From: Phyllobates terribilis
Taxonomy: Eukaryota
DNA: 64,000 nt
Direction: 5' to 3'
NCBI RefSeq assembly: GCF_046119375.1
Contig: NW_027362762.1
Location: 439,022,001-439,086,000 of the forward strand
Made by a program: the position numbers and the translations under genes
Part shown: positions 12,556-40,435 of the stretch, in pieces
Numbering within the stretch: the stretch's first letter is position 1
Layout: each line of letters opens with the position of its first letter
Notes under the pieces: generated by a model
What the model saw: only the letters and a program-made list of their open reading frames with translations
The model's database searches: none
What the model was told of the DNA's origin: nothing

Positions 12556-15500
12556 AGCCGCAAATATATATATATTTTAAAAAGCCTGGTATACACAAGT
12601 AAATTATTACTGTGGTTTTGATGTTCCACGGTAAAACATCTCTATTATCCTGTTTTTGGCATTTTTTGCTGTATAAAAATAATAATAGTGTCTCCCTGAT
12701 TTTTCAGACACAAATATATCTGTTGAAAATAGTCTGGTGTAGGCCAGAGAGACAGAAGTGTGCTTTTGCTGTTCCACGGTAAAAAATCTCTATTATCCTG
12801 CTTTTTGCATTTTTTGCTGTAAAAAAAAAAAAAATAGTGTCTCCCTGATTTTTCAGACACAAATATATCTGTTGAAAATAGTCTGGTGTAGGCCAGAGAG
12901 ACAGAAGTGTGCTTTTGCTGTTCCATGGTAAAAAATCTCTATTATCCTGCTTTTTGCATTTTTTGCTGTAAAAAAAAAAAAAAATAGTGTCTCCCTGATT
13001 TTTCAGACACAAATATATCTGTTGAAAATAGTCTGGTGTAGGCCAGAGAGACAGAAGTGTGCTTTTGCTGTTCCATGGTAAAAAATCTCTATTATCCTGC
13101 TTTTTGCATTTTTTGCTGTAAAAAAAAAAAAAAAATAGTGTCTCCCTGATTTTTCAGACACAAATATATCTGTTGAAAATAGTCTGGTGTAGGCCCGAGA
13201 AATACAAGTGTGGTTTTGCAGTTCCACGGTACAAACCTCTGTATTATCCACTTTTGGGCCATTTGTATCTAAAAAAAACAGTTTGAGTGTGTCGCTCACT
13301 GTTCAGCCGCAAATATATATATATTTTAAAAAGCCTGGTATACACCAGTAAATTATTACTGTGGTTTTGATGTTCCACGGTAAAACATCTCTATTATCCT
13401 GTTTTTGGCATTTTTTGCTGTATAAAAATAATAATAGTGTCTCCCTGATTTTTCAGACACAAATATATCTGTTGAAAATAGTCTGGTGTAGGCCAGAGAG
13501 ACAGAAGTGTGCTTTTGCTGTTCCACGGTAAAAAATCTCTATTATCCTGCTTTTTGCATTTTTTGCTGTAAAAAAAAAAAAAATAGTGTCTCCCTGATTT
13601 TTCAGACACAAATATATCTGTTGAAAATAGTCTGGTGTAGGCCAGAGAGACAGAAGTGTGCTTTTGCTGTTCCACGGTAAAAAATCTCTATTATCCTGCT
13701 TTTTGCATTTTTTGCTGTAAAAAAAAAAAAAAAATAGTGTCTCCCTGATTTTTCAGACACAAATATATCTGTTGAAAATAGTCTGGTGTAGGCCCGAGAA
13801 ATACAAGTGTGGTTTTGCAGTTCCAAGGTACAAACCTCTGTATTATCCACTTTTGGGCCATTTGTATCTAAAAAAAACAGTTTGAGTGTGTCGCTCACTG
13901 TTCAGCCGCAAATATATATATATTTTAAAAAGCCTGGTATACACCAGTAAATTATTACTGTGGTTTTGATGTTCCACAGTAAAACATCTCTATTATCCTG
14001 TTTTTGGCATTTTTTGCTGTATAAAAATAATAATAGTGTCTCCCTGATTTTTCAGACACAAATATATCTGTTGAAAATAGTCTGGTGTAGGCCAGAGAGA
14101 CAGAAGTGTGCTTTTGCTCTTCCACGGTAAAAAATCTCTATTATCCTGCTTTTTGCATTTTTTGCTGTAAAAAAAAAAAAAAATAGTGTCTCCCTGATTT
14201 TTCAGACACAAATATATCTGTTGAAAATAGTCTGGTGTAGGCCAGAGAGACAGAAGTGTGCTTTTGCTGTTCCATGGTAAAAAATCTCTATTATCCTGCT
14301 TTTTGCATTTTTTGCTGTAAAAAAAAAAAAAAATAGTGTCTCCCTGATTTTTCAGACACAAATATATCTGTTGAAAATAGTCTGGTGTAGGCCAGAGAGA
14401 CAGAAGTGTGCTTTTGCTGTTCCATGGTAAAAAATCTCTATTATCCTGCTTTTTGCATTTTTTGCTGTTAAAAAAAAAATAGTGTCTCCCTGATTTTTCA
14501 GACACAAATATATCTGTTGAAAATAGTCTGGTGTAGGCCCGAGAAATACAAGTGTGGTTTTGCAGTTCCAAGGTACAAACCTCTGTATTATCCACTTTTG
14601 GGCCATTTGTATCTAAAAAAAACAGTTTGAGTGTGTCGCTCACTGTTCAGCCGCAAATATATATATTTTAAAAAGCCTGGTATACACAAGTAAATTATTA
14701 CTGTGGTTTTGATGTTCCACGGTAAAACATCTCTATTATCCTGTTTTTGGCATTTTTTGCTGTATAAAAATAATAATAGTGTCTCCCTGATTTTTCAGAC
14801 ACAAATATATCTGTTGAAAATAGTCTGGTGTAGGCCAGAGAGACAGAAGTGTGCTTTTGCTCTTCCACGGTAAAAAATCTCTATTATCCTGCTTTTTGCA
14901 TTTTTTGCTGTAAAAAAAAAAAAAATAGTGTCTCCCTGATTTTTCAGACACAAATATATCTGTTGAAAATAGTCTGGTGTAGGCCAGAGAGACAGAAGTG
15001 TGCTTTTGCTGTTCCATGGTAAAAAATCTCTATTATCCTGCTTTTTGCATTTTTTGCTGTAAAAAAAAAAAAAATAGTGTCTCCCTGATTTTTCAGACAC
15101 AAATATATCTGTTGAAAATAGTCTGGTGTAGGCCCGAGAAATACAAGTGTGGTTTTGCAGTTCCACGGTACAAACCTCTGTATTATCCACTTTTGGGCCA
15201 TTTGTATCTAAAAAAAACAGTTTGAGTGTGTCGCTCACTGTTCAGCCGCAAATATATATATATTTTAAAAAGCCTGGTATACACCAGTAAATTATTACTG
15301 TGGTTTTGATGTTCCACGGTAAAACATCTCTATTATCCTGCTTTTTGCATTTTTTGCTGTAAAAAAAAAAAAAAAATAGTGTCTCCCTGATTTTTCAGAC
15401 ACAAATATATCTGTTGAAAATAGTCTGGTGTAGGCCAGAGAGACAGAAGTGTGCTTTTGCTGTTCCACGGTAAAAAATCTCTATTATCCTGCTTTTTGCA

Positions 15501-18500
15501 TTTTTTGCTGTTAAAAAAAAAAAAATAGTGTCTCCCTGATTTTTCAGACAAAAATATATCTGTTGAAAATAGTCTGGTGTAGGCCCGAGAAATACAAGTG
15601 TGGTTTTGCAGATCCAAGGTACAAACCTCTGTATTATCCACTTTTGGGCCATTTGTATCTAAAAAAAACAGTTTGAGTGTGTCGCTCACTGTTCAGCCGC
15701 AAATATATATATATTTTAAAAAGCCTGGTATACACCAGTAAATTATTACTGTGGTTTTGATGTTCCACGGTAAAACATCTCTATTATCCTGTTTTTGGCA
15801 TTTTTTGCTGTATAAAAATAATAATAGTGTCTCCCTGATTTTTCAGACACAAATATATCTGTTGAAAATAGTCTGGTGTAGGCCAGAGAGACAGAAGTGT
15901 GCTTTTGCTGTTCCACGGTAAAAAATCTCTATTATCCTGCTTTTTGCATTTTTTGCTGTAAAAAAAAAAAAAATAGTGTCTCCCTGATTTTTCAGACACA
16001 AATATATCTGTTGAAAATAGTCTGGTGTAGGCCAGAGAGACAGAAGTGTGCTTTCGCTGTTCCACGGTAAAAAATCTCTATTATCCTGCTTTTTGCATTT
16101 TTTGCTGTAAAAAAAAAAAAAAATAGTGTCTCCCTGATTTTTCAGACACAAATATATCTGTTGAAAATAGTCTGGTGTAGGCCCGAGAAATACAAGTGTG
16201 GTTTTGCAGTTCCACGGTACAAACCTCTGTATTATCCACTTTTGGGCCATTTGTATCTAAAAAAAACAGTTTGAGTGTGTCGCTCACTGTTCAGCCGCAA
16301 ATATATATATATTTTAAAAAGCCTGGTATACACCAGTAAATTATTACTGTGGTTTTGATGTTCCACGGTAAAACATCTCTAATATCCTGCTTTTTGCATT
16401 TTTTGCTGTAAAAAAAAAAAAAAATAGTGTCTCCCTGATTTTTCAGACACAAATATATCTGTTGAAAATAGTCTGGTGTAGGCCAGAGAGACAGAAGTGT
16501 GCTTTTGCTGTTCCACGGTAAAAAATCTCTATTATCCTGCTTTTTGCATTTTTTGCTATTAAAAAAAAAAAAATAGTGTCTCCCTGATTTTTCAGACACA
16601 AATATATCTGTTGAAAATAGTCTGGTGTAGGCCCGAGAAATACAAGTGTGGTTTTGCAGTTCCAAGGTACAAACCTCTGTATTATCCACTTTTGGGCCAT
16701 TTGTATCTAAAAAAAACAGTTTGAGTGTGTCGCTCACTGTTCAGCCGCAAATATATATATATTTTAAAAAGCCTGGTATACACCAGTAAATTATTACTGT
16801 GGTTTTGATGTTCCACGGTAAAACATCTCTATTATCCTGCTTTTTGCATTTTTTGCTGTAAAAAAAAAAAAAAATAGTGTCTCCCTGATTTTTCAGACAC
16901 AAATATATGTGCTGAAAATAGTCTGGTGTAGGCCAGAGAGACAGAAGTGTGCTTTTGCTGTTCCATGGTAAAAAATCTCTATTATCCTGCTTTTTGCATT
17001 TTTTGCTGTTAAAAAAAAAAAATAGTGTCTCCCTGATTTTTAAGACACAAATATATCTGTTGAAAATAGTCTGGTGTAGGCCCGAGAAATACAAGTGTGG
17101 TTTTGCAGTTCCACGGTACAAACCTCTGTATTATCCACTTTTGGGCCATTTGTATCTAAAAAAAACAGTTTGAGTGTGTCGCTCACTGTTCAGCCGCAAA
17201 TATATATATATTTTAAAAAGCCTGGTATACACCATTAAATTATTACTGTGGTTTTGATGTTCCACGGTAAAACATCTCTATTATCCTGTTTTTGGCATTT
17301 TTTGCTGTATAAAAATAATAATAGTGTCTCCCTGATTTTTCAGACACAAATATATCTGTTGAAAATAGTCTGGTGTAGGCCAGAGAGACAGAAGTGTGCT
17401 TTTGCTGTTCCACGGTAAAAAATCTCTATTATCCTGCTTTTTGCATTTTTTGCTGTAAAAAAAAAAAAATAGTGTCTCCCTGATTTTTCAGACACAAATA
17501 TATCTGTTGAAAATAGTCTGGTGTAGGCCAGAGAGACAGAAGTGTGCTTTTGCTGTTCCATGGTAAAAAATCTCTATTATCCTGCTTTTTGCATTTTTTG
17601 CTGTAAAAAAAAAAAAAAATAGTGTCTCCCTGATTTTTCAGACACAAATATATCTGTTGAAAATAGTCTGGTGTAGGCCAGAGAGACAGAAGTGTGCTTT
17701 TGCTGTTCCATGGTAAAAAATCTCTATTATCCTGCTTTTTGCATTTTTTGCTGTTAAAAAAAAAATAGTGTCTCCCTGATTTTTCAGACACAAATATATC
17801 TGTTGAAAATAGTCTGGTGTAGGCCCGAGAAATACAAGTGTGGTTTTGCAGTTCCACGGTACAAACCTCTGTATTATCCACTTTTGGGCCAATTGTATCT
17901 AAAAAAAACAGTTTGAGTGTGTCGCTCACTGTTCAGCCGCAAATATATATATATATTGAAAAGCCTGGTATACACCAGTAAATTATTACTGTGGTTTTGA
18001 TGTTCCACGGTAAAACATCTCTAATATCCTGCTTTTTGCATTTTTTGCTGTAAAAAAAAAAAAATAGTGTCTCCCTGATTTTTCAGACACAAATATATCT
18101 GTTGAAAATAGTCTGGTGTAGGCCAGAGAGACAGAAGTGTGCTTTTGCTGTTCCACGGTAAAAAATCTCTATTATCCTGCTTTTTGCATTTTTTGCTGTT
18201 AAAAAAAAAAAAATAGTGTCTCCCTGATTTTTCAGACACAAATATATCTGTTGAAAATAGTCTGGTGTAGGCCCGAGAAATACAAGTGTGGTTTTGCAGT
18301 TCCACGGTACAAACCTCTATATTATCCACTTTTGGGCCATTTGTATCTAAAAAAAACAGTTTGAGTGTGTCGCTCACTGTTCAGCCGCAAATATATATAT
18401 ATTTTAAAAAGCCTGGTATACACCAGTAAATTATTACTGTGGTTTTGATGTTCCACGGTAAAACATCTCTATTATCCTGTTTTTGGCATTTTTTGCTGTA

Positions 18501-21500
18501 TAAAAATAATAATAGTGTCTCCCTGATTTTTCAGACACAAATATATCTGTTGAAAATAGTCTGGTGTAGGCCAGAGAGACAGAAGTGTGCTTTTGCTGTT
18601 CCACGGTAAAAAATCTCTATTATCCTGCTTTTTGCATTTTTTGCTGTAAAAAAAAAAAATCGTGTCTCCCTGATTTTTCAGACACAAATATATCTGTTGA
18701 AAATAGTCTGGTGTAGGCCAGAGAGACAGAAGTGTGCTTTTGGTGTTCCATGGTAAAACATCTCTATTATCCTGCTTTTTGCATTTTTTGCTGTAAAAAA
18801 AAAAAAAAATAGTGTCTCCCTGATTTTTCAGACACAAATATATCTGTTGAAAATAGTCTGGTGTAGGCCAGAGAGACAGAAGTGTGCTTTTGCTGTTCCA
18901 TGGTAAAAAATCTCTATTATCCTGCTTTTTGCATTTTTTGCTGTTAAAAAAAAAAATAGTGTCTCCCTGATTTTTCAGACACAAATATATCTGTTGAAAA
19001 TAGTCTGGTGTAGGCCAGAGAGACAGAAGTGTGCTTTTGCTGTTCCACGGTAAAAAATCTCTATTATCCTGCTTTTTGCATTTTTTGCTGTTAAAAAAAA
19101 AAAAATAGTGTCTCCCTGATTTTTCAGACACAAATATATCTGTTGAAAATAGTCTGGTGTAGGCCCGAGAAATACAAGTGTGGTTTTGCAGTTCCAAGGT
19201 ACAAACCTCTGTATTATCCACTTTTGGGCCATTTGTATCTAAAAAAAACAGTTTGAGTGTGTCGCTCACTGTTCAGCCGCAAATATATATATATTTTAAA
19301 AAGCCTGGTATACACCAGTAAATTATTACTGTGGTTTTGATGTTCCACGGTAAAACATCTCTATTATCCTGTTTTTGGCATTTTTTGCTGTATAAAAATA
19401 ATAATAGTGTCTCCCTGATTTTTCAGACACAAATATATCTGTTGAAAATAGTCTGGTGTAGGCCAGAGAGACAGAAGTGTGCTTTTGATGTTCCACGGTA
19501 AAACATCTCTATTATCCTGTTTTTGGCATTTTTTGCTGTATAAAAATAATAATAGTGTCTCCCTGATTTTTCAGACACAAATATATCTGTTGAAAATAGT
19601 CTGGTGTAGGCCAGAGAGACAGAAGTGTGCTTTTGCTGTTCCATGGTAAAAAATCTCTATTATCCTGCTTTTTGCATTTTTTGCTGTTAAAAAAAAAAAT
19701 AGTGTCTCCCTGATTTTTCAGACACAAATATATCTGTTGAAAATAGTCTGGTGTAGGCCCGAGAAATACAAGTGTGGTTTTGCAGTTCCACGGTACAAAC
19801 CTCTGTATTATCCACTTTTGGGCCATTTGTATCTAAAAAAAACAGTTTGAGTGTGTCGCTCACTGTTCAGCCTCAAATATATATATATTTTAAAAAGTCT
19901 GGTATACATCAGTAAATTATTACTGTGGTTTTGATGTTCCACGGTAAAACATCTCTATTATCCTGCTTTTTGCATTTTTTGCTGTAAAAAAAAAAAAAAA
20001 AAATAGTGTCTCCCTGATTTTTCAGACACAAATATATCTGTTGAAAATAGTCTGGTGTAGGCCAGAGAGACAGAAGTGTGCTTTTGCTGTTCCATGGTAA
20101 AAAATCTCTATTATCCTGCTTTTTGCATTTTTTGCTGTTAAAAAAAAAAAATAGTGTCTCCCTGATTTTTCAGACACAAATATATCTGTTGAAAATAGTC
20201 TGGTGTAGGCCCGAGAAATACAAGTGTGGTTTTGCAGTTCCACGGTACAAACCTCTGTATTATCCACTTTTGGGCCATTTGTATCTAAAAAAAACAGTTT
20301 GAGTGTGTCACTCACTGTTCAGCCGCAAATATATATATATATTTTAAAAAACCTGGTATACACCAGTAAATTATTACTGTGGTTTTGATGTTCCACGGTA
20401 AAACATCTCTATTATCCTGCTTTTTGCATTTTTTGCTGTAAAAAAAAAAAAAAAATAGTGTCTCCCTGATTTTTCAGACACAAATATATGTGTTGAAAAT
20501 AGTCTGGTGTAGGCCAGAGAGACAGAAGTGTGCTTTTGCTGTTCCATGGTAAAAAATCTCTATTATCCTGCTTTTTGCATTTTTTGCTGTTAAAAAAAAA
20601 AAAATAGTGTCTCCCTGATTTTTAAGACAAAAATATATCTGTTGAAAATAGTCTGGTGTAGGCCCGAGAAATACAAGTGTGGTTTTGCAGTTCCACGGTA
20701 CAAACCTCTGTATTATCCACTTTTGGGCCATTTGTATCTAAAAAAAACAGTTTGAGTGTGTCGCTCACTGTTCAGCCGCAAATATATATATATTTTAAAA
20801 AGCCTGGTATACACCATTAAATTATTACTGTGGTTTTGATGTTCCACGGTAAAACATCTCTATTATCCTGTTTTTGGCATTTTTTGCTGTATAAAAATAA
20901 TAATAGTGTCTCCCTGATTTTTCAGACACAAATATATCTGTTGAAAATAGTCTGGTGTAGACCAGAGAGACAGAAGTGTGCTTTTGCTGTTCCACAGTAA
21001 AAAATCTCTATTATCCTGCTTTTTGCATTTTTTGCTGTAAAAAAAAAAAAAAATAGTGTCTCCCTGATTTTTCAGACACAAATATATCTGTTGAAAATAG
21101 TCTGGTGTAGGCCCGAGAAATACAAGTGTGGTTTTGCAGTTCCACGGTACAAACCTCTGTATTATCCACTTTTGGGCCATTTGTATCTAAAAAAAACAGT
21201 TTGAGTGTGTCGCTCACTGTTCAGCCGCAAATATATATATATTTTAAAAAGCCTGGTATACACCAGTAAATTATAACTGTGGTTTTGCACGGTAAAAAAT
21301 CTCTGTTATTCAGGTTTTGGTAGTTTTTTCCGTAAAGAAAAACAGTAGTGTCTCCTGACTGTTGTGACACAAAAATATATCTGTTGAAAATAGTCTTGTG
21401 TAGGCCCGACATCCCAGTGTGGTTTCGCAGTTCCACGGGTCAAATCGCTGTACTATCCAGTTTTGGGCCTTTGGTATCTAAAAAAAAAGCAGTTTGAGTG

Positions 21501-21600
21501 TGTCGCTCACTGTTCAACCGCAAATATCTCTATTTAAAAAAGTGTGGTATACACCAGTAAACAATAACTGTGGTTTTCCTCTTCCACGGTTCTAATCTAC
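1..21600. repeat. Tandem satellite array of ~149-bp monomers (~144 monomers) of three related types (A, B1, B2) arranged as B2-(A)n-B1; continues beyond the left edge of the window
   Basis: Monomer A (GTGTCTCCCTGATTTTTCAGACACAAATATATCTG...CTGTAAAAAAAAAAAATA) recurs every ~149 bp. B1 carries GGCCCGAGAAATACAAG (35 copies counted, first at 350, last near 21110). B2 carries GTGTGTCGCTCACTGTTCAGCCGCAAATATATATAT. Confidence 0.98.
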
Positions 21601-21658: not shown

Positions 21659-22738
21659 ATGGGCAAGGCGCGTGGCAAGGGACGTGGAAGTGGACGTTCT
21701 GGTGATGGTTCGTGCAGAGGACGGGGCTGTGGCCAAGGTGAAAATGTGCCACAACCAACAGCCACATCTTCTCGCTCCCACTTCTTGACCGAATTACTAG
21801 GGAAGCACAGAACAACACCAGTATTGAGAACTGATCAGTGTGAACAGGTTATTAATTGGATAGCAGACAATACTTCCAGTTACCTGGGCACCACCACCTC
21901 CGGTCTGTCTTCCACACGGTCAACTCTTAGTAGCCGTGAGTCTCGACCGCATACTCCTCCTCACCCTGATGCTCCTTCCTCCCACCATGCCGAGTGTCGT
22001 CAGACAGCAAGTGATCCCACACTTGGACACTCTGAAGAGCTGTTCACTGGTCCATTTCCATATTTGGGCCCCTCGCCTGATACGCTTGAAGTGGTGGAAG
22101 AGGAGATCCCATGTTGCGATGCCCAAATATTTGAACAGCCACGGCCACAGGAAGTCGACTTTGGCAATCTGTCACAAGAGGTGGACGATGACGAGACACA
22201 ATTGCCAGGAAGTGAGGAGGAGGATCGTGGTGCGCAAGTGGAAGAGGAGGAGGAGGTGGTGGATGATCTAGTAACTGACCCAACATGGAAGGGGGACATG
22301 CGGAGTGAGGCCAGCAGCACACAGGGGGAGGGAGGCAGAGTACCCCAACAGGCAGGAAGAAGCAGTGTGGTGGCCGCAGACAGAAGGCAGGCAACCGTTC
22401 CCCGTAACACCAACACGAGGGACGTTGCCAGTACAAGCGGTAGGTCTTCCAGAGTCTGGAATTTTTTTTAAAGACTCTGCTGATAACCCCAAAAAGGCCA
22501 TATGTTCCACCTGCCATGCCAGCATCAGCAGGGGTGACAAAACTACCAGCCTGACCACCACCAGCATGATCAGGCACATGGCAGCAAAGCACCCGACTTT
22601 GTGGGGCGAACCCCAGGGTCCACGACCAGTGTCAGCGGGTGTCACCACTGCTTCTTCCACTGTTGTGCGTGCAATAGAACCCCCTGTTGTGTGTGCAAGG
22701 CAATCCCCTGTCCATACTGCATGTAAAGATGCCCCCTC
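21659..22738 (+). pseudogene. hAT transposase, N-terminal acidic region plus BED zinc finger; +1 frameshift in the T8 run at 22462-22469
   Basis: ORF 21659..22471 ends SRVWNFF*. The next frame reads KDSADNPKKAICSTCHASISRG...SMIRHMAAKH, i.e. the BED finger W-FF...CxxC...H...H. Truncated by the Gypsy insertion at 22739. Confidence 0.9.
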
Positions 22739-23160
22739 TGTTACAACTCTCCTGTTAGGTTTTTTTTAGTTTGCTGGTCACATGACCAGTTTTGCCTATT
22801 TAATCCGGCTCCGCCCTCCTGGCATTGCTGGACTTCATTGTATTTACTACTGTTGAGCTAGCTTGGTGCTCTGTTGCCGTTCTCTGTTAGTTTTGCTAGG
22901 TCTTCTGACCTCTATGCTTTTTGTTGTGTGTTTGTCTTTGACTGCTACTATTTCTGCTAGGGGGTGTCCAACTTATCCCAGTCCCTAGATCTTGTAGGGA
23001 TCCCTCCCTCACATCTATAGGTCTTCGTACAGACTAGCCTAGGACTTTAGCGGGTCTGATTGCAGGATCAGGTTCCCCGTTACATCGTAGGGATCTAGTT
23101 TAGTTCTATTGTAGGGACAGATCTCCTGTCTTTCCTTAGTCTCTGTAGCAGATCATAACA
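22739..23160 (+). repeat. 5' LTR of Gypsy-1
   Basis: TGTTACAACT...GATCATAACA, with TATA-like TATTTAA at 22797-22803. Confidence 0.97.
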
Positions 23161-23162
23161 GT

Positions 23163-23171
23163 AAGTCCAGC
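23163..23171 (+). promoter_or_regulatory. Self-priming primer-binding site (AAGTCCAGC), complementary to LTR 22827-22835
   Basis: Exact 9-nt reverse complement of GCTGGACTT, which lies 30 bp downstream of the LTR TATA-like box. Confidence 0.7.
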
Positions 23172-23224
23172 CTTAAAAAAAAAAAAAAAAAATTTCTCTA
23201 AGGAAAGACCTTCAGTTTTCCATC

Positions 23225-26200
23225 ATGGTCTCGGTGCAAGATTTGGCTCAACGCTTGCAGGGACTCTCTCTGGAGGTGGCCAAGCTCCAACAACACGTGA
23301 GTAGCTGTTCTGGAGCGCATTTTGTGGAACCAAAGGTACGTCTGCCTGATCTATTTTTTGGCGAACAACAAGATTTTTTTTCTTTTAAAAATGCTTGTCT
23401 ATTATATTTTCGTTTGAGACCCGGATCCTCTGGTGATGAATCACAGCGCATAGGGTTCATAATGTCACATTTGCGCAAAGATCCTCAGGGATGGGCCTTC
23501 TCTGTCCAACCTAGTGATCCGTGCTTTAGATCAGTGGATAGTTTTTTTTCTGCTTTGGGTTTATTGTACGATGATCCTGATCGTGTCTCATCTGCTGAGT
23601 CTGAATTAAGACGTTTGAGGCAGGGATCAGGTAATGTGGAAAAATATTGTTCTCACTTCCGTCGGTGGTCTGCCCAGGTGGGGTGGAACGATTCAGCTTT
23701 GAAAAGCTTGTTTCTTGCAGGGCTAGGTGAAAGGGTTAAGGATTTACTGATTGCTTATCCCACACCTGGAAACTTGCAGGAGGCAATGCAATTAGCTATA
23801 CGGGTGGACAGGAGACTGCGTGCAAGGGTTAATGAGAGAAAATCCTCTGCTATGTCAGCTTCGAGTCCTGAGAGGTTCAGTGCTGACAATGGTGAGCCAA
23901 TGGAAATTGGGGCTATGGCACCCCGTTCTCAGGAAAAAGACCGCCGACTTTCTGAAGGCTTGTGTTTCTATTGCGGAAATTCTGGTCATTTTATTAAGAG
24001 CTGTGTGCTTCGTATGAAGAAAGAAAAAAAAATGGTCAGTCATGCCCGTATTGCCTGTTTAAATTCTAAGGGAGTATTCCTATCTGCCACTACTGCTGCT
24101 CAGGATGAGTTAATTGAATTTCGGGTATTTGTGGATTGTGGATCTACTCTAAATGTGATTGATGGGAGATTCTTGGAAAAACTTAAATTAGAACCTAAAA
24201 CTTTGTCATCCCCTATTGCTGTGGTTTCTGTCGATGGCTCTCCCTTGAAGAGTGTTACTCACAAGGTCTGTGAATTTCCCCTCACTATTAATGGTATTCA
24301 TCAAGAGAATTTGGATTTGGTGGTATTGGATAATTTGCCTTCTCCTGTAATATTGGGGTTACCCTGGTTAAAATTGCACAATCCTGTACTGGATTGGTCT
24401 ACCAATGAAATTAAGTCCTGCAGCCCTAAGTGTTATGACAAGTGTTGTAACGGGCGCATTGCTGCTGTGGATAGAGGGGAATTGCCTGTACCTATTCAGG
24501 ATTTTTGGAGAGTTTTTTCTGAGGAGGAGTCGCAGGTTTTGCCTCCCCATAGAGACTATGATTGTACCATTGAATTTGTCCCTGGAGTGACTCTTCCTAA
24601 GAGTCGTTTATTTAATCTTACTATTCCTGAGAGAAAGGCTTTGGAGGAATACATACAGACAAGCTTGGCCGCTGGTCACATTAGGCCTTCCAAGTCTCCT
24701 GTGGCTGTTGGATTTTTTTTTGTAAAAAAAAAAGATGGCGGTTTACGTCCTTGTCTGGACTTTTGTGAGATTAATAAAATTACTGTACGCAATCCTTACC
24801 CACTGCCATTGATTCCTGATTTATTTAACCAGTTAGTGGGGGCCAAGTGGTTCTCTAAAATTGATCTCCGGGGGGCATACAATTTGTTGCGCATGAAGGA
24901 GGGTGATGAATGGAAGACTGCTTTTAACACTCCTGTGGGTCATTTTGAGAATCTGGTTATGCATTTTGGTCTCACCAATGCTACAGCATTTTTTCAGAAT
25001 CTTATTAATGATATCCTTAGACCTTTAATCGGCAAAAATGTGGTTGTGTATTTGGATGACATTTTGATTTATTCGCCTGATCTGGAGTCTCATTGGCGGA
25101 GCGTACGTGAGGTATTACAGTTATTAATGGACAATTCGCTTTTTGCTAAGCTGGAGAAATGTGAGTTCGCTGTACAGAGAATTAGTTTTTTGGGCTACAT
25201 TATCTCCAGTGAAGGTTTTGAGATGGACCCGGTTAAAGTTCAAGCTGTGCAGGAATGGCCTAGGCCTATTGGTTTGAAATCGATACAGAGGTTTTTGGGT
25301 TTCGCCAATTATTACAGAAAATTCATAAAAAAAATTTCTATTATTATCAAACCGCTGACCGATCTCACCAGGAAAGGTGCTAATACGGTTCAGTGGACTT
25401 CTGAGGCCATTGAAGCTTTTGTGTTTTTAAAGGAGAGGTTCACCTCTGCTCCCATCCTTATGCAGCCTGATGTGACTAAGCCGTTTTTGGTTGAGGTTGA
25501 TGCTTCTTCGGTGGGGGTTGGTGCGGTGTTGTCTCAGGAAAACAAGGATGGAGTACATCCCTGTGCCTTTTTTTCAAAAAAATTTTCCGAGACTGAACTT
25601 AATTACGATATTGGTAATCGGGAATTGCTGGCGATTAAACTCGCATTTGAACACTGGCGTCACCTCTTGGAAGGTGCAGATTTTGACATTCAGGTTTTCA
25701 CTGATCATAAAAATCTGATCTATCTTGATGCTGCCAAGCGCTTGAATGCCCGTCAGGCTAGGTGGTCACTTTTTTTCTCGCGGTTTAATTTTTCCGTTAC
25801 TTACATCCCGGGTACCAAGAATGTTAAAGCGGATGCTTTGTCTCGCAGCTTTTCTCCCATGGTCGGTGTTGAGGAGGAAGAGGAGACCATTTTACAAGAA
25901 GGTGTTGTGATTGCTGCTTTGGACTCCGTTTTGGAGGATGAGATTCTTAAAGCACAGGAGAATGCCCCATCTAACACTCCCCATGGGAGGTTGTTTGTGC
26001 CTAGGACCTTTAGGAGAGATTTGTTTGTTGAGTGTCATGAGTCTCGGTTGGCAGGTCATCCAGGAATTTTTGAGACCAAGAGACTTGTGGGTCGCAGTTT
26101 TTGGTGGCCTGGATGGCAGAAGGAAGTCATTAAGTGGGTGCGCCAATGTACTGTGTGTGCTAGATCCAAGTCTTCGCATGCTCCTGCTGCGGGGTTGCTT

Positions 26201-27295
26201 TGCCCTCTGGAGGTTCCTAGTGCACCTTGGACACATTTGGCTATGGACTTTATTACTGACCTTCCTCCCTCTGAAGGTTTCACGGTCATCTGGGTGGTCG
26301 TGGACCGTTTTAGCAAGATGTGTCACTTGGTTCCCTTCATCAAACTGCCTTGCGCTAAGACACTCGCTAAGGCCTTTGTCAAGGAGATTGTCAGACTACA
26401 TGGTGTTCCTACTGACATTGTTTCTGATAGGGGACCTCAGTTCGTGGCTCGTTTTTGGCGTGCCTTTTGTGACAGGTTGGGAGTCCATTTGTCGTTTTCA
26501 TCCGGATATCATCCTGAGTCTAATGGCCAGACAGAAAGGAAGAACCAGGATGTTGAGCAGTTCTTGTGTTGTTTTGTGGCAGACAATCAAGAGGGGTGGT
26601 CTGAGTTTCTGCCACTTGCTGAATTTGCTCTTAACAACCATACATCCTCTTCTGCTGGGTGTTCGCCTTTTTTTTGTTGTTCTGGGAGACATCCGTCTTT
26701 TGGGTCATTCTCCAAATTGGTTTCGGCTGTGCCTGAGGAGGAGAGTTTTTCCGGTGATTTGGAGAGAGTTTGGACAGATGTGCGTGGTAATCTTCAGGAG
26801 GCTAACAAAAAATCTAAGAGGTACTTTGATAGGAAACGGCAAGAGGTTTTGTTTGCTGTTGGTGACATGGTTTGGTTGTCCTCTAAGAATCTGCGATTGA
26901 GGATTCCTTCTAAAAAATTGGGTTCCAAATTCGTAGGGCCCTTTAAGGTGCTTCAGATAGTTAACCAATCTGCTGTTAGGCTGGAGGTTCCTACGTCCTG
27001 GAGGATTAATCCGGTGTTTCATGTTTCTCTGTTGAAAAAAGCTGATGTGTCGGATGGTGACGCCTCTGCCACTGTTCTTCCGGTGGTGGAGGACGGGGAA
27101 TATGAAATTTCCCGCATCCTAAATTCTAGACGGTATAGAGGGAGTTTGCAGTATCTCGTCGCTTGGAAGGGTTTCGGACCTGAGGATAACTCATGGGTGA
27201 GGGCGGATGATGTTTCTGCTTCCAGACTTGTCCGAGCGTTTCACAGGAGGTTTCCTGGTAAGCCTGGGCCTAGGGGATCCGGAGGATCCTCTTAG
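23225..27295 (+). CDS. Gag-Pol polyprotein, 1356 aa (gag, CCHC knuckle, protease, RT, RNase H, integrase, chromodomain)
   Basis: CFYCGNSGHFIKSC; VFVDCGSTLN; YLDDILIY; VEVDASSVGVGAVL; HESRLAGHPG...CTVC; AMDFIT / SDRGPQF / GQTERKNQ; YEISRILNSR...YLVAWKGFGPEDNSWV. Confidence 0.97.
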   Translation: MVSVQDLAQRLQGLSLEVAKLQQHVSSCSGAHFVEPKVRLPDLFFGEQQDFFSFKNACLLYFRLRPGSSGDESQRIGFIMSHLRKDPQGWAFSVQPSDPCFRSVDSFFSALGLLYDDPDRVSSAESELRRLRQGSGNVEKYCSHFRRWSAQVGWNDSALKSLFLAGLGERVKDLLIAYPTPGNLQEAMQLAIRVDRRLRARVNERKSSAMSASSPERFSADNGEPMEIGAMAPRSQEKDRRLSEGLCFYCGNSGHFIKSCVLRMKKEKKMVSHARIACLNSKGVFLSATTAAQDELIEFRVFVDCGSTLNVIDGRFLEKLKLEPKTLSSPIAVVSVDGSPLKSVTHKVCEFPLTINGIHQENLDLVVLDNLPSPVILGLPWLKLHNPVLDWSTNEIKSCSPKCYDKCCNGRIAAVDRGELPVPIQDFWRVFSEEESQVLPPHRDYDCTIEFVPGVTLPKSRLFNLTIPERKALEEYIQTSLAAGHIRPSKSPVAVGFFFVKKKDGGLRPCLDFCEINKITVRNPYPLPLIPDLFNQLVGAKWFSKIDLRGAYNLLRMKEGDEWKTAFNTPVGHFENLVMHFGLTNATAFFQNLINDILRPLIGKNVVVYLDDILIYSPDLESHWRSVREVLQLLMDNSLFAKLEKCEFAVQRISFLGYIISSEGFEMDPVKVQAVQEWPRPIGLKSIQRFLGFANYYRKFIKKISIIIKPLTDLTRKGANTVQWTSEAIEAFVFLKERFTSAPILMQPDVTKPFLVEVDASSVGVGAVLSQENKDGVHPCAFFSKKFSETELNYDIGNRELLAIKLAFEHWRHLLEGADFDIQVFTDHKNLIYLDAAKRLNARQARWSLFFSRFNFSVTYIPGTKNVKADALSRSFSPMVGVEEEEETILQEGVVIAALDSVLEDEILKAQENAPSNTPHGRLFVPRTFRRDLFVECHESRLAGHPGIFETKRLVGRSFWWPGWQKEVIKWVRQCTVCARSKSSHAPAAGLLCPLEVPSAPWTHLAMDFITDLPPSEGFTVIWVVVDRFSKMCHLVPFIKLPCAKTLAKAFVKEIVRLHGVPTDIVSDRGPQFVARFWRAFCDRLGVHLSFSSGYHPESNGQTERKNQDVEQFLCCFVADNQEGWSEFLPLAEFALNNHTSSSAGCSPFFCCSGRHPSFGSFSKLVSAVPEEESFSGDLERVWTDVRGNLQEANKKSKRYFDRKRQEVLFAVGDMVWLSSKNLRLRIPSKKLGSKFVGPFKVLQIVNQSAVRLEVPTSWRINPVFHVSLLKKADVSDGDASATVLPVVEDGEYEISRILNSRRYRGSLQYLVAWKGFGPEDNSWVRADDVSASRLVRAFHRRFPGKPGPRGSGGSS

Positions 27296-27307
27296 AAGAG
27301 GGGGTAC

Positions 27308-27729
27308 TGTTACAACTCTCCTGTTAGGTTTTTTTTAGCTTGCTGGTCACATGACCAGTTTTGCCTATTTAATCCGGCTCCGCCCTCCTGGCATTGCTGG
27401 ACTTCATTGTATTTACTACTGTTGAGCTAGCTTGGTGCTCTGTTGCCGTTCTCTGTTAGTTTTGCTAGGTCTTCTGACCTTTATGCTTTTTGTTGTGTGT
27501 TTGTCTTTGACTGCTACTATTTCTGCTAGGGGGTGTCCAACTTATCCCAGTCCCTAGATCTTGTAGGGATCCCTCCCTCACATCTATAGGTCTTCGTACA
27601 GACTAGCCTAGGACTTTAGCGGGTCTGATCGCAGGATCAGGTTCCCCGTTACATCGTAGGGATCTAGTTTAGTTCTATTGTAGGGACAGATCTCCTGTCT
27701 TTCCTTAGTCTCTGTAGCAGATCATAACA
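27308..27729 (+). repeat. 3' LTR of Gypsy-1
   Basis: Direct repeat of 22739-23160 immediately after the PPT. Confidence 0.97.
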
Positions 27730-29994
27730 CCCTCGTCTCAGTCTTCACTTGTTATGGCAGTTTCTCAAGAAACAGCATCAACGTCCACGTCCACGTCCCA
27801 CCGCAGCGTTCAATTGTCCATATCCCAGACCTTTGAACGAAAGCGGAAATTCGCAGCTAACGCCCCACAGGCCACAGTCCTAAATTCGCACATTTCACGA
27901 CTGCTTGCATTGGAAATGCTGCCTTTTAGGCTGGTGGAGACGGAATCCTTCCGCAACCTTATGGCGGTGGCCGTCCCTCGGTACTCGGTCCCCAGCCGAC
28001 ACTATTTTGCCCGGTGTGCCATCCCCGCACTACACAAGCACGTGTCCCAAAGCATCTGCCGTGCCCTCAACAACGCAGTTACTGGGAGAGTCCACCTGAC
28101 AACGGACACGTGGACAAGTGCTTGTGGCCAGGGACGGTACATCTCTCTGACGGCACACTGGGTAAACATAGTGGAAGCCGGGACCCAGTCGGACCTTGGG
28201 ACGGAACACATCCTCCCCACACCAAGGATTGCGGGCCCTATGTCAGTCAGAGTTGCCCCCACAGTGTACAGCTCCTGCGCATCCTCCTCCTCCTCCTCAT
28301 GTTCAGCCTCCATCTCAGATATCACCACATCAGTTACAAGCTGGAAGCATTGCAGTACTGCCTCTGCCAAGCGGCAACAGGCTGTGCTGAAACTCATAAG
28401 CTTAGGTGATAAACCTCTCACTGCTTGTGAGTTGTGGACAGCTGTGAAAGAGCAGGCAGATCTGTGGCTGAGACTGCTGAACCTACATCCCGGCATGGTC
28501 GTGTGTGACAATGGCCGTAACCTGGTGGCGGCTCTGAGGCGAGGTGAGATCACACACGTACCATGCCTGGCTCATGTGCTTAACTTCGTGGTTCAGCGGT
28601 TTCTTAAATCGTAACCCGAGTTGCCAGATCTGCTCGTGAAAGTACGCCGCCTGTCAGCTCATTTTCACAAGTCGGCTACAGCTTCCGCCGCCCTTGCTGT
28701 GTTGCAGCAGCATTTGCAGCTTCCGGCACACCGACTGGTTTGTGATGTCCCCACACGTTGGAACTCTACCCTCCACATGTTGCAAAGGATTTGTGAGCAG
28801 AAGAGAGCAGTTGTGGAATACCAGCTGCAACAAGGCCGTCGATATTCAGGTCAGACTCCACACATAAGACCTCAGGAGTGGACCTGGATGTCTGACATAT
28901 GTACCATCCTGACAAATTTTGAGGAGCCCACCAAGATGGTGAGTGGCGATGACGCCAACATTAGTGTCAGCATCCCACTTGTCTGTCTTTTGCAACGCTC
29001 TCTGCAGAGAATTAAAGAGGAGGCATTGCAGCCAGAGTATGATGAGATGGATCAAGAAGCCGTAGCGGGCGATTACACACAGCCCAGCCTCATCTCATCC
29101 CAACGTGCATTGGGGGACAATGAGGGAGAGGAGGAGGAGGAGGAAGAACAGGAGCTGCTATCATGCGTTGTAGACGGTAGTACCTGTACAAGTGTCATAC
29201 CGTCGGTTCAGCGTGGGTGGCCTGAGGACAGGGGGGAGGAGGAAGAGGAGGAGGAGGAGAGCATGGTCAGTCATCATCTTGGTGAGGACACGGAAATCTT
29301 GCCCGTTACGAGTCTGGCACGCATGGCTGACTTTATGTTACGCTGCCTTAACCGTGACCCTCGCGTTGTCAAAATGTTGGGTGACAGTCATTACTGGTTG
29401 GTGACACTTGTAGACCCCCACTACAAGGAGAACTTTCACTCTCTTATTCCTGAGGTGGAGAGGTCTACAAAAATGGGGCAATACCAGAAGGCCCTTGCTG
29501 CAGAACTCTTAAAAAAATTCCCATCTGAACACGCTAGCGGCAGAGGTCACAGTTCATTGCCCAACCAAGGCGTACAGGCGAGAGAGATGCAACTCCAATC
29601 CAGCAGAGGCAGGGGAACACTGTCAACGTTCTGGGACAGTTTTCTGACACCCGCCCAGCTTACAGGCCCTGAGGCGCGGGGTACTCTCACAAGGAGTGGA
29701 AAGTTTCAAAAGATGGTGAGGGAGTACCTTGCCGATCGTACCAGCATCCTCCGTGATTCCTCTGTGCCTTTTAATTATTGGGTATCCAAGCTGGACACTT
29801 GGAATGAACTCGCTCTGTACGCCTTGGAGGTCCTGGCCTGCCCTGCCGCTAGCGTGTTATCGGAGCGTGTTTTTGGTGCCGCTGGGGGAATTATAACTGA
29901 TAAGCACACTCGCCTGTCAACTGACAATGCTGACAAGCTGACCCTTATCAAAATGAACAAGGATTGGGCCAGACTTCTCATCACCACCAAATGA
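27730..29994 (+). pseudogene. hAT transposase catalytic core and C-terminal dimerisation domain; one in-frame stop at 28612-28614
   Basis: Motifs HLTTDTWTS (D), MVVCDNGRNL (D), CLAHVLN (CxxH), DVPTRWNST, and ACPAASVLSERVF (E, hATC). KS*PELPDLL is in frame, consistent with TAC>TAA. Confidence 0.93.
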
Positions 29995-30156
29995 CAGCAG
30001 AGTAACATAAAGTCAAATCCACTGTGTTATTTCGGGAGGTGTATTCACATGCACCGCTTCACACCCACACATGGGTATACTCTTCCTCGTTTCGGCTGTT
30101 TAATCTTCTTCTCCTTATCCTCAGCCTCCACCACCACTATACCACCAGGGTGCCAG

Positions 30157-30540
30157 CATTGCAATTGCTCCGTCCTAATTTTTGGCAGCTTTTGCTGGGA
30201 AAGCATAAGCAAATACTATGGGAGACCCACTCCCCAATAATGGGACTTATGTTTGTAATATGCTGTACTGCATGGCTCTTGTAAGGGGCATTGCAAGTTG
30301 CTCCGTCCTAATTTTTGGCAGCTTTTGCTGGGAAAGCATAAGCAAATACTATGGGAGACCCACTCCCCAATAATGGGACTTATGTTTGTAATATGCTGTA
30401 CTGCATGGCTCTTGTAAGGGGCATTGCAAGTTGCTCCGTCCTAATTTTTGGCAGCTTTTGCTTGCAAGGCATAAGCAAATACTATGGGACACCCACTCCC
30501 CAATAATGGGACTTATGTTTGTAATATGCTGTACTGCATG
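30157..30540. repeat. Three tandem 133-bp units in the hAT 3' region; the third is interrupted by a solo LTR and resumes at 31566
   Basis: GCTCCGTCCTAATTTTTGGCAGC at 30167, 30300 and 30433. Confidence 0.9.
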
Positions 30541-31565
30541 TGACGCGCCCCCTGGGCCGTGTGTACACGTGTGTGGGATACCTGGTGCCGGGTCTCTGGG
30601 GTCTGTAGTCTCCGTGGCGGTAACCCGGTCCCGTGGCTCAGGCAGGTCAAACCAGTGGCAATCTTTCTTAGGTTTTGAGGTTAATTGTCCGACTGCGCCA
30701 CCCGTGGATTGCGGTCAGGGAGTACCACCGCTGCGAGGCAGAGCGCTGAGGCTGGTGTTGTGTGCGCAACATAAAATGGGATAACTCCCCTCGGGAGGAG
30801 TATAGCCTCAGGGCAGTGAGTGTGGATGATGGGGGTGATGATACACGAGCGCCGCAGGAATGACTCAGAGTCTTTGCAGTGCAGTTCAGGGTCTTTACTG
30901 ATGATTATAAGGTAGACCCTCCCGGGAGTACTGGCTAGCATAAGAGGCCTGGTCAGTCTGTGAGCAAGCAGGAGTTCCCCTGGCCAGGTGGAGTTGTAGG
31001 CCTCCCCGTCTGTCTGCACTCTTCCTGGCTACCTTGCTGTAAGCGGGTAGAAGTAGCCCACGTCCCTGAGTGTACCGTGTAGTGCTCACCCGTATGGCTG
31101 GTGACTTGGGGCCTTCTGTTAGCCTCCGCTCCACGACGGCGGTGCTGGTCCCTTGCTTATGACTGAGCCTCCGGGCTTCTATGGCCAGAGGACCTGAAAT
31201 CCCCTGCTGGCTGGTTTCTTCTGCTGGATATATAAGTCCTCACAGCTTCGGACTCCTGTGTCCGGTTCATATTGTCTTCTGCCAGGGCGAGCTCTGCTCA
31301 GCTTCCAGCACCTCGTCTTTAGCTCCTAGCTCCTACAGTGCTCCTTGCTGTTACTTTCCCTTGCTCTCACTCTGACTCTGACTGTTCTCTGTTCTCTGAC
31401 TCACTCAACCCCACCCCAGATCCAGTTTATAAGGGCAGAATTCTCCCCTCCCAGGACTGGGGCAGGAGGATGTTGCATGTTTAAGGGATCCTGACCAGGA
31501 AACCTCCCACTTGCTCTCCGACGTAATCTCTATTACTGTGGTGACCAGACCCCTGGGGTGCCACA
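30541..31565 (-). mobile_element. Solo LTR (~1.0 kb)
   Basis: Inverted termini (TG)TGACGCGCCCCCTGGG ... CCCTGGGGTGCCACA, with CATG on both flanks (30537-30540 and 31566-31569). A minus-strand TATA (CCCTTATAAACTGG) and AGTAAA signal suggest orientation. No coding sequence. Confidence 0.75.
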
Positions 31566-31699: not shown

Positions 31700-33440
31700 C
31701 CATGTCATTTCCAAGGGGCATTGGAGTGCCTCGAAATTTTTGGTAGGCATTGCACTCACTGTATGCCATATAACTGTGTAGCCGAACCGCTCCTTTTGTT
31801 ACAGAAACATATCCTACAAGACATATCTGGTTGACTGGCCTGATATTGATGTGAATGGTCCCTGTTCCTCCTGCTCTTTCTCCTTTGCCACTACCTCATC
31901 CATCATTTATCACCTGAAGCTTTGTTTTAACGGGAGTCATAGAACTTGGATAGTAGCAGGAAAACATCCAGCAATCCTCGGAGGAGGTAGGATATGCGCC
32001 AAAACGCTGACCTCCTCAGGCCTAGCCGCTACTACATACATGCGCTTGCATTACAACAAAACAAAGCAGATGCTAACTTCTATCATCCTCATCATGCTTC
32101 TCACCTTGGCACTCTCAACTCCCCTGATGGAGAAGCCAGGGCCCACCGGAGGAGTCTGATAGTCCGGTGGGCTCGGCCAATGCTGCCCTAAAGCAGGCCA
32201 GGCTAAGAAAAGTGTGGGAAAGGTTACCGGTACAAATAGGGGTGGCTGGGGACCGAGTATGGACACCCAGCCACCCCCTGGAGGCTGGGGAGCAAGCGGG
32301 GACACCCGGGGACTGAGTATGGATACCAGGCCGCCGACACAGCCATGGCGTGGTGGCCAGATTCCGCCTCCACATGCCTAAAAGGCCCAATTTAAAGTGC
32401 AAGCAAGCAGTATGGTATTGCAGCCTGGGAGTGGGTGGGTGGCAGGCTGCATACTTGCGCTTGCATTGCAAGGAATGGGAGAGGTACAATTGAACACTGC
32501 CCTGGGACAAGGACTTGAATGGGGATAGTTGCAAGTCTGCAACGACAGGTGCAAGGTGGGAGGCATCTTCGCATGTATCATGAACAGGGGTTTGGCATGC
32601 ACACACTACAGCGGAATAGGCTCTCCTTCCCACTAAATGCACTGGGGAGGGCACAGGTAATGTTTTGGTATATGCGCTTAATGTTATGTATAAGGCACAC
32701 CAGGACAAATAGGGGCGGCTGGGGACTGAGTATGAATACCTCGCTGCCGAAGCAGCCATGAGGTAGTGACCAGCTTCGGCCTCCTCTAAACTAAAAGGCC
32801 CCATTTCAAGTGCAAGCTAGCAGTATGGAATTGCAGTCTGGGGGTGGGTGGGTGGCAGGCTGCACACTTACACTTGCATTAAAAGAAAACATAGCAGATG
32901 CTAACTTCTGTCATCATCATCATGCTCCTCACCTTGGCACTCTCAACTCCACCGATGGAGAAGTCAGGGCCCACCGGAGGAGTCTGGTTCTCTGGTGGGC
33001 TCGTCCAATGCTGCCTAAAGCAGGCCGGGCTAAGAAAAGTGTTTGGGGGGATGTTCCAAGGAGAAATGGGGGCGGCTGGGGACCGTTTATGGACACCCGA
33101 CTGCCCCCAGGCGGCTGGGGACCGTGTGGACACTCGGCCGCGGGGCGGCTGGGGACTGAGTATGGACACCCGGCCGCCGGGCGGCTGGGGACTGAGTATG
33201 GATTCCAGGCCGCCAACACAGCCATGACGTGGTGGCCAGATTCCCCCTCCACATGCCTAAAAGGCCCAATTTCAAGTTCAAGCAAGCAAGCAGTACGGTA
33301 TTGCAGCCTGGGGGTGGGTGGGTGGCAGGCTGCATACTTGCGCTTGTATTGCAAGGAATGGGGGAGGTACAATTGAACACTGCCCTGGGACTAGAACTAG
33401 CATGGGGATAGTTGCAAGTCTGCATCTTCTGATGCGGCAA
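31700..33440 (-). pseudogene. Antisense, degenerate, partly tandem-repeated fragments of hAT transposase coding sequence
   Basis: Minus-strand translations SVQLYLSHSLQCKRKYAA, GPFRHVEGESGHHVMAV..YSVPSR, AVVCACQTPVHDTCEDAS and HILPPPRIAG match the sense transposase SVQLSISQTFERKRKFAA, LPFRLVETESFRNLMAV..YSVPSR, PVVCARQSPVHTACKDAPS and HILPTPRIAG. Confidence 0.85.
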
Positions 33441-33959
33441 GGATCACTTATGATGGGCACACTTTTAGACAGTGACCTGGGAGTCAGAGATGCTTCCAGG
33501 GGTCTTCCCCATGCTGTTCCCATGTCTTTTCAGCACTTTATGCATGTGTCACACAGCACATGGCCAGATAAGGTTGTAAAATGTTAAAATGACATTTCCC
33601 GGTGAATGCATTTGTCATAGTTGAAAGCAATACAAAAATGCAAAAACACATAAAAAATGCTACTTGTGAACATAGCCGAAGGTGTGGAGGAGTATTTTTG
33701 TTTTTGGTCATTTATTTTAACTTATACACAAGTCTTTTCCCTGGAAAGGATGCTCCTTAACATATTTCACAGGAAAAAAGTTTCACTTTCGTTTTATTGT
33801 GAGCCTGTAAAAGTGGCTTAATACCTCTGACCACATTGTTGACAGCAGTGACCTGGGGGTCAGAAATGCTTCCTGGGGTGATCCCCATGCTGTCCCCATG
33901 TCATTTGAGCACTGTCACTATCGTTTTGGGCACTTGTTAGGCTTTCAAAAGACTGCCGG

Positions 33960-34094
33960 GGGTGCCACGGCAAAAATGCTCGAGTCTCCCATAGACTAAC
34001 ATTGGGCTCGTTGCTCGGGTCGAGCACCCGAGTATCACGGCGAGCTCGGCCCGAGCTTCGAGCACCCGAGCATTTTAGTGCTCACTCAACACTA
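33960..34094 (+). repeat. hAT right subterminal repeats and TIR
   Basis: Dense GCTCG/CGAGC/CCCGAG motifs ending in CTCAACACTA. Confidence 0.8.

Positions 34095-40336: not shown

Positions 40337-40435
<99 letters not shown>

What the first reader, a model, noticed from the sequence alone, without database searches (positions are those of the whole stretch)
31700..33440. The hAT element carries multiple antisense copies of its own transposase sequence
Seen: on the minus strand three modules (~32300-32600, ~32710-32880, ~33190-33390) match the SVQL..RKRK..PFRLVE..YSVPSR segment, and ~31950-32020 matches HILPTPRIAG. DNA matches include TACTCAGTCCCCAGCCG versus TACTCGGTCCCCAGCCG. One module runs from TPVHDTCEDAS to SVQL, spanning the position where Gypsy-1 interrupts the sense gene, which acts as an internal empty-site control. 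Inference: read-through or convergent transcription could give antisense or fold-back RNA against the transposase, a built-in self-silencing or piRNA-trigger module. The alternative is an older relative captured in inverted orientation.
Basis: partly seen in the sequence, partly recalled or inferred. Interest (0 to 1): 0.7.

Follow-up and report, generated by a model that had tools for sequence, protein, structure and literature searches.

The report
Transposon hauling inverted transposase relics
A very abundant cut-and-paste transposon, likely from a frog, carries back-to-front scraps of transposase genes near one end, but they are only about 65% alike to its own gene and closer to related transposon families, so they are likely old captured cargo rather than a built-in self-silencing device.

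Summary
The inverted transposase pieces are real and fixed in the family: 18 of 20 copies picked by transposase carry them, and 2 could not be followed to the tail. They are not copies of today's own gene. They are 63-65% identical to it (longest exact match 16 nt) and match a sister family, S110, better. All 16 modules sampled from both families form one clade; grouping this family's modules with its own gene is rejected (p-AU 3e-9). The HILPPPRIAG piece comes from a third hAT family (86% over 71 nt). Mismatches to the nearest gene are even across codon positions, and the modules are no better conserved than the 3' UTR. Module number varies from one to four, and three related copies lack them. 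The family is young and prolific (median 0.82% divergence). Best reading: one old inverted capture, later tandem duplication and a second capture, all carried passively, as in lizard hobo_AC. Weak piRNA targeting or fold-back is not excluded: no stranded or small-RNA data were available.

The parts
1..21590 (.). 149/150-bp tandem array inside the element's 5' arm, hugely expanded in this copy; the 5' TIR lies 3,135 bases left of the window (L049:6866)
21659..22738 (+). hAT transposase gene, 5' part (BED finger region); frameshifted in this copy
22739..27729 (+). Gypsy/chromovirus-type LTR retrotransposon inserted in the ORF (LTRs 99.3% alike, 5-bp TSD); at this site only in this copy among those aligned
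27730..29994 (+). hAT transposase gene, 3' part (stop at 28612-28614 in this copy; hAT dimerisation domain); 27777-28087 is the stretch that the modules mirror
30156..30540 (.). 133-bp tandem array of the 3' arm (2.9 units here, many more in some copies)
30541..31565 (.). solo-LTR-like block (TG...CA, CATG on both sides), carried by most family copies, absent in L047, L097, L101, L102
31793..32037 (-). inverted, internally deleted transposase fragment from a different hAT family (L150/P0008); includes HILPPPRIAG
32032..32230 (.). spacer of the duplicated unit (second copy about 32860-33057; homologue in S110 tails)
32211..32291 (-). short inverted transposase remnant (YSVPSR motif region)
32308..32614 (-). 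module 1: inverted transposase relic, aa 342-445, 64.6% nt to the own gene, about 68-70% to S110; spans the Gypsy site
32628..32885 (-). module 2: inverted transposase relic, 63.5% nt to the own gene
33070..33214 (-). 36-bp tandem repeat (4 units) of the YSVPSR-coding motif
33182..33391 (-). module 3: inverted transposase relic, aa 380-447, 65.4% nt to the own gene; present in tail types A, B and C
33470..33537 (+). duplicate of the element's own subterminal 33846-33913 (88%), next to the module block
34083..34094 (-). 3' TIR; followed by the 8-bp TSD AGAAGTAC, identical to the 8 bases before the 5' TIR

Best explanation
The modules are decayed pieces of hAT transposase genes that lie inverted in the 3' arm of a young, high-copy hAT family and that likely travel as passive cargo. 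Shown: a stretch of transposase (ORF bases about 1080-1670) entered the 3' arm once, before this family and sister family S110 split, and was later duplicated in tandem to different extents in each; a second inverted fragment, from another hAT family, was added in this lineage. Inferred: the first capture happened by template switching during repair or replication, from a close relative or an old copy of the ancestral lineage, because in S110 the block is flanked by a direct repeat of the element's own subterminal DNA and also holds a sense transposase piece and another subterminal duplicate. Inferred: it persists because it sits between the TIRs and does not block mobility; it encodes nothing and adds little to silencing beside the many near-identical copies that would supply perfect antisense guides.
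For: Fixed: 18 of 20 transposase-picked copies, 2 uninformative. Single origin: 16 of 16 modules one clade, 100/100; this family's modules plus its own gene rejected as a clade, p-AU 3.3e-9. Closer to S110 than to self (65-75% vs 61-71% by columns). Second donor at 86% vs 79% over 29 nt for self. Mismatches to S110 by codon position 31/25/26, 30/26/29, 26/27/28 (p 0.69-0.96) against 19/12/31 (p 0.011) for the two sense genes. Between families the modules are 79-86% alike, like the 3' UTR (82-86%) and synonymous sites (pS 0.198), and below neighbouring subterminal DNA (86-96%). Copy number varies: 12 type A, 3 type B, 2 type C and 1 deletion form among the 18; one to four modules in S110. Related copies L156, S104a (L104/L169) and S105 (L105/L088) reach the 3' end without modules. 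The 233-aa minus-strand frame is not kept: 169-203 aa in 12 of 20 type-A copies with a 3' TIR, 231-239 aa in 8; 6 copies without a TIR in range were left out. The family is 0.82% (median, 35 copies) from its majority ORF, and many copies have open frames over 1,100 aa. Patchwork junctions in S110. Precedent: hobo_AC (PMC3014272, passages).
Against: The block has been kept in two families across about 20% synonymous divergence and amplified in both, which a function would also explain. Both captures in this family are antisense (S110 also has one sense piece, so 2 of 3 events). Under the relaxed PIWI rule (at most 6 mismatches in 26 nt; PMC10338343, passages) 161 of 1,716 tail 26-mers could still pair with the own ORF (shuffles 0-1). 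Module-target duplexes are stable in isolation, and the window tail has no AATAAA on the + strand (one ATTAAA at 32878), so read-through is not excluded. The donor of modules 1-3 was not found: the clade sits in an unresolved fork, and 'all modules plus own gene' is not rejected (p-AU 0.056), so an ancient self-duplication remains possible. The module-less relatives are single decayed copies and may be deletions.
Confidence: 0.76

Rival explanations
1. Built-in attenuator: the transposase transcript reads through the 3' arm and folds back on aa 342-455, or a + strand transcript of the tail yields piRNAs, so the element limits its own expression.
For: Fixed in the family and in S110. Duplex energies -214 to -311 vs shuffled -111 to -166 kcal/mol. 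No AATAAA before the modules in the window or in L081. 161 of 1,716 26-mers within 6 mismatches. The pairing was better in the past: an S110 tail has 35 21-mers within 1 mismatch of its own ORF.
Against: Longest helices 13-18 bp including G-U, about 45% of perfect energy. 0 of 1,721 21-mers within 2 mismatches and only 2 exact 15-mers. An ordinary inverted family copy gives 1,149 of 1,715 perfect 26-mers. No extra conservation. No sign of escape in the target: pS 0.241 vs 0.188 elsewhere, p 0.14. The family expanded recently.
Confidence: 0.1
2. Ancient self-duplication: modules 1-3 came from the element's own ancestral transposase by a template switch onto the opposite strand, then decayed while the gene stayed under selection. 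Passive today, but 'self' in origin.
For: The module clade joins at the fork that holds this family, S110, S104a and S105; 'all modules plus own gene' has p-AU 0.056. The other fillers in the S110 block are the element's own parts.
Against: The stem of the module clade (0.14) is far longer than S110's sense branch from the same fork (about 0.02), and the flanking duplicates are 86-96% alike while the module is 73-77% alike to the resident gene, which suggests that the donor was already diverged; those duplicates may however be constrained. It cannot explain the 31793-32037 piece.
Confidence: 0.1
3. Cross-family interference: the tail supplies antisense RNA against competing hAT families that share TIRs, while its own gene has drifted out of range.
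For: The window tail pairs better with S110 (275 of 1,716 26-mers within 6 mismatches; 8 exact 15-mers) and has a 22-nt exact match to the L150 family. S110 copies are older (2.56% vs 0.82%).
Against: The same ranking follows from the tree (long branch of this family's gene). Those families' own copies would give far better guides. No RNA evidence.
Confidence: 0.03
4. An independent nested insertion private to this copy.
For: Other insertions in the window copy are private (Gypsy).
Against: 23 other genomic copies cover all of 31700-34094 at 97-98%; no TIR-like 12-mer within 2 mismatches inside the tail.
Confidence: 0.01

Closest known systems
hobo_AC of Anolis carolinensis (Novick et al., PMC3014272; passages read)
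   Same: Long autonomous hAT that carries fragments of older transposons; lineages with near-identical transposase differ in structure; recombination between elements makes composites.
   Different: There the cargo named is Chapaev, Bov-B, CR1 and SINE pieces; here it is inverted transposase of the element's own clade plus a second hAT family, kept across two families. The passages read do not mention inverted self-like cargo.
Ac killer composite insertions (bioRxiv 10.1101/2020.01.07.897926; abstract and section 16 read) and Mu killer (PMC3440606; search listing only)
   Same: Inverted transposase sequence inside a DNA-transposon structure, able in principle to give fold-back RNA; Ac is also a hAT.
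   Different: Those are single rearranged loci with long perfect inverted repeats, shown to give dsRNA and siRNA and to silence the family. Here the arms are 63-65% alike, several kb apart, part of the standard mobile element, with no RNA evidence.
Pack-TIRs, gap-filling and FoSTeST models (PMC8277862; passages read)
   Same: Capture by template switching followed by amplification through transposition; antisense regulation of the parent gene is raised there as a possibility.
   Different: Pack-TIRs carry non-TE host sequence; this cargo is transposon DNA.
Frog 'ZBED4/ZBED6-like' hAT transposases
   Same: BED finger plus hAT dimerisation domain; up to 71% aa identity over residues 340-560; 20 of 22 hits carry BED or hAT Pfam entries.
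   Different: Automatic gene names; here the protein is the transposase of a mobile family with TIRs and TSDs.

Membership tests
hAT superfamily | Short terminal inverted repeats | tested here: met
   5' end TAGTGTTGAGCGA, 3' end (reverse) TAGTGTTGAGTGA
hAT superfamily | 8-bp target-site duplication | tested here: met
   Perfect in the window copy and in 3 of 4 other copies with both ends in view, one mismatch in the fourth
hAT superfamily | Transposase with BED finger and C-terminal hAT dimerisation domain | tested here: met
   PF02892 and PF05699 above cut-off in intact copy L081; PF05699 in the window ORF
hAT superfamily | DDE catalytic triad | not tested
   No alignment to a characterised hAT transposase was made
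Mu killer / Ac killer type silencing locus | Long near-perfect inverted repeat of transposon sequence | tested here: not met
   63-65% identity, longest exact match 16 nt, longest helix 18 bp
Mu killer / Ac killer type silencing locus | Transcribed into dsRNA and processed to small RNAs | not testable with these tools
   Only unstranded contigs were available
Mu killer / Ac killer type silencing locus | Represses the family in trans | tested here: inconclusive
   The family carrying it is young and prolific, which argues against strong repression but does not measure it
hobo_AC-like cargo-carrying hAT | Unusually long autonomous element with older TE fragments shared by copies | tested here: met
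   8.5-9.5 kb TIR to TIR in 4 copies; modules, second-donor piece and LTR-like block shared
hobo_AC-like cargo-carrying hAT | Structural lineages on a near-identical transposase, with recombinants | tested here: met
   Tail types A, B, C; type B with the LTR-like block (L081, L083) and without (L097), type A without (L047)
Pack-TIR | Captured sequence is non-TE host DNA | tested here: not met
   Captured pieces are hAT transposase
Pack-TIR | Template-switch junctions with microhomology | tested here: inconclusive
   Patchwork of own subterminal, sense and antisense pieces in S110; junction microhomology was not scored

The most novel reading that the evidence does not exclude
An autonomous vertebrate DNA transposon keeps, and repeatedly re-amplifies, an imperfect inverted copy of its transposase in a 3' arm without a canonical polyA signal as a tuned brake (fold-back or piRNA source) on itself and on sister hAT families: a mobile, heritable, self-encoded 'killer' that is part of the standard element.
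Probability: 0.1. Interest if true: 0.75.

Novelty: new variant of a known kind. Interest (0 to 1): 0.3.

Why it matters
As read here it is a clean, datable case of how giant frog hATs grow: capture, tandem duplication and recombination in the arms. It also warns that protein-based repeat annotation will count these relics as extra transposase copies in the opposite orientation. If the unlikely functional reading held, it would be a transposon that carries its own silencing trigger as a standard part, which would make self-limitation of DNA transposons directly testable. The natural variants (one to four modules, 65% vs 75% complementarity, module-less relatives) are a ready-made comparison series.

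Tried and rejected
RNA: no RNA holder was listed on record. Four runs guessed as RNA and four of unknown kind are Logan contigs; they cover all bins but show no strand, ends or level. At diagnostic sites the RNA-guess contigs follow S110-type letters and X5 follows type B/C tails rather than the window's type A, so they do not represent this subfamily. The A>G at 27909, at first a candidate for editing in the paired region, is an S110-type letter (G in 6 of 7 S110 copies) and was dropped; 6 of the other 9 A>G sites checked had G in 32-34 of 35 or all aligned genomic copies in the ORF or tail, and the rest were likewise explained by family or subfamily letters. Rfam on 29900-34200: 0 matches at E 0.1. 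Pfam on the two minus-strand frames: 0 families. Escape test in the target region: not significant. A sense-strand donor of modules 1-3 was sought with P0001, P0002 and P0008 in the genome and among 22 public homologues: none stood out; genome searches score only the best 40-132 candidates. That the 3' end is an inverted second element was rejected: module-less relatives share the same 3' end. Earlier scan notes by sequence and by words: nothing. Literature searches (listings only) showed no hAT family with a fixed inverted transposase relic; the library lacks most subscription papers. PMC9250109 (abstract only) and hpRNA papers (listing only) were not used. Caveats: the 20 transposase-picked copies were chosen by hand from 132 hits and favour long open frames; in the tree S105 is misaligned at its end and module MB fills under half of the columns; one search was a script error, rerun.

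Full report
Setting. The window comes from a 10.6-Gb genome; the nearest named homologues of the transposase are frog 'ZBED4/6-like' proteins, so it is likely a frog. The finding lies in the 3' arm of a hAT element. Its 3' TIR ends at 34094, its 5' TIR lies 3,135 bases left of the window, and both are flanked by the same 8 bases. The 149-bp array at 1-21590 is inside the element. A Gypsy-type element (22739-27729) interrupts the ORF of this copy; aligned copies run straight through. An intact copy encodes 1,122 aa with BED and hAT dimerisation domains. A protein search scored 132 of 384,353 candidates, all 97-100% identical, many in open frames over 1,100 aa. 35 copies differ from their majority ORF by a median of 0.82%.

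Observation. Against the intact ORF of L081 the window has inverted matches at 32308-32614 (64.6%), 32628-32885 (63.5%), 33182-33391 (65.4%) and 32211-32259. The modules are 79-88% alike to each other and sit in a duplicated unit (32032-32541 vs 32860-33424, 80%).

Fixation. A DNA search scored 40 of 6,375 candidates; 23 other copies span the whole query at 97-98%. To avoid picking by the tail I took 20 of the 132 transposase hits (by hand, favouring long frames): 18 carry modules and 2 (L091, L100) are interrupted before the tail. The tails differ: 12 are like the window, 3 have a longer relic reaching aa 543 at 73% (type B), 2 have one module (type C) and 1 is a deletion form. No TIR-like motif lies inside the tail.

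Origin. Sister family S110 (83% nt to the own ORF; copies 2.56% from their majority) carries homologous modules: 9 of 14 fetched copies have one to four, L156 reaches its 3' end without, and 4 are uninformative. In a 31-row tree, 16 of 16 modules form one clade (100/100) in an unresolved fork with the sense genes of this family, S110, S104a and S105. This family's modules plus its own gene are rejected as a clade (p-AU 3.3e-9); all modules plus the own gene are not (p-AU 0.056). So the capture is single and older than the family split; whether the donor was the ancestor itself or a close relative is open. The 31793-32037 piece is a second capture: 85.9% over 71 nt and 73.6% over 163 nt to the L150/P0008 family, joining two distant parts of that gene, against 79% over 29 nt to the own gene. 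In S110 the block is flanked by an 85-113-bp direct repeat of subterminal DNA and holds a sense transposase piece and another subterminal duplicate; S104a and S105 have one copy of the repeat and no block. I infer template switching during repair or replication, as modelled for Pack-TIRs (PMC8277862, passages). Five P0004-like elements (L147-149, L151, L152) showed no inverted transposase hits.

Signs of function. Coding: none. Mismatches to S110 are even across codon positions while the two sense genes show a third-position excess, and the 233-aa frame is not kept. Conservation: against five S110 copies module 3 is 79-83% and module 1 83-86% alike, the 3' UTR 82-86%, the last 250 bases 82-85%, and 33440-33840 86-96%; synonymous divergence is 0.198. 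Complementarity: longest exact match 16 nt; 0 of 1,721 21-mers within 2 mismatches of the window ORF, 39 for S110 and 27 for the L150 family. PIWI slicing needs at least 15 contiguous pairs or longer pairing with mismatches, and the paper's simulation allows 6 mismatches in 26 nt (PMC10338343, passages). By that rule 161 of 1,716 tail 26-mers could pair with the own ORF (shuffles 0-1) and 275 with S110, whereas an ordinary inverted family copy gives 1,715 of 1,715, 1,149 of them perfect. Fold-back: duplexes are much stronger than shuffles but about 45% of perfect, with helices of at most 13-18 bp. The window tail has no AATAAA on the + strand, so read-through cannot be excluded. Escape: pS in the mirrored region is 0.241 vs 0.188 elsewhere, p 0.14. 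RNA data were uninformative (see Tried and rejected).

Mechanism. Most likely (0.76) passive cargo: one inverted capture, tandem duplication, a second capture and recombination between copies. Presence, fixation, single origin, the second donor and the neutral-like pattern are shown; the repair mechanism and the lack of function are inferred. Self-attenuation 0.10, ancestral self-duplication without present function 0.10, cross-family interference 0.03.

Comparison. It is a hAT by TIR, TSD and domains. It works like hobo_AC of Anolis, a 9-15-kb hAT that carries older transposon fragments and forms recombinant structures (PMC3014272, passages). It fails the defining feature of Ac killer loci, long perfect inverted repeats (10.1101/2020.01.07.897926, abstract and section 16). 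Searches (listings only) showed no description of a fixed inverted transposase relic in a hAT family. Earlier scan notes on this genome describe cargo-laden hATs and arrays in the arms; they gave me two papers as leads and are not counted as support.

Verdict. A real, family-wide and mildly unusual feature, wrongly labelled as 'own' transposase and probably without function. Interest 0.3.

Noticed in passing
window 1-21590 and L049:7482-10000: The 149-bp array in the 5' arm, a few units long in most copies, is expanded to about 24 kb in this copy, with long-period structure (90% identity at offsets near 7.5 and 9.6 kb); the element still has a perfect TSD.
   Followed up: partly
window 30541-31565; L085, L091, L100, L144, L155, L156, L164: A solo-LTR-like block is a carried part of most copies, and 68-80% relatives of it occur as separate insertions in or beside several other hAT copies; preference or mere abundance was not tested.
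   Followed up: partly
L145:4937-5186, L142:5539-5770: S110 tails carry a sense-orientation transposase piece (about aa 559-630, 79-85% to their own gene) next to the antisense modules.
   Followed up: partly
L087:9293 and L098:9027; L101, L102: Both type-C copies are followed directly by the 3' part of another family member with a type-B tail, at nearly the same ORF position: likely one nested composite that was copied.
   Followed up: no
L090:2709-3030 (reverse): TIRs of two hAT elements lie head to tail with only an 8-base spacer.
   Followed up: no
L084, L088, L096, L046: The 133-bp array of the 3' arm varies from about 2 to more than 25 units between copies with 97-98% identical ORFs.
   Followed up: partly
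window 33440-33619: This subterminal stretch is 94-96% conserved between the two families and is duplicated in both: candidate transposase-binding sites.
   Followed up: no
window 35800-39400, 40251-40925, 44716-45468, 48619-49746: A second, decayed Gypsy-like element and three Tc1/mariner-like frames (identified by eye, not scanned).
   Followed up: no
window 50720-52330 and 57213-58864: Two minisatellites (34-bp and 30-bp units) that give long low-complexity open frames.
   Followed up: no
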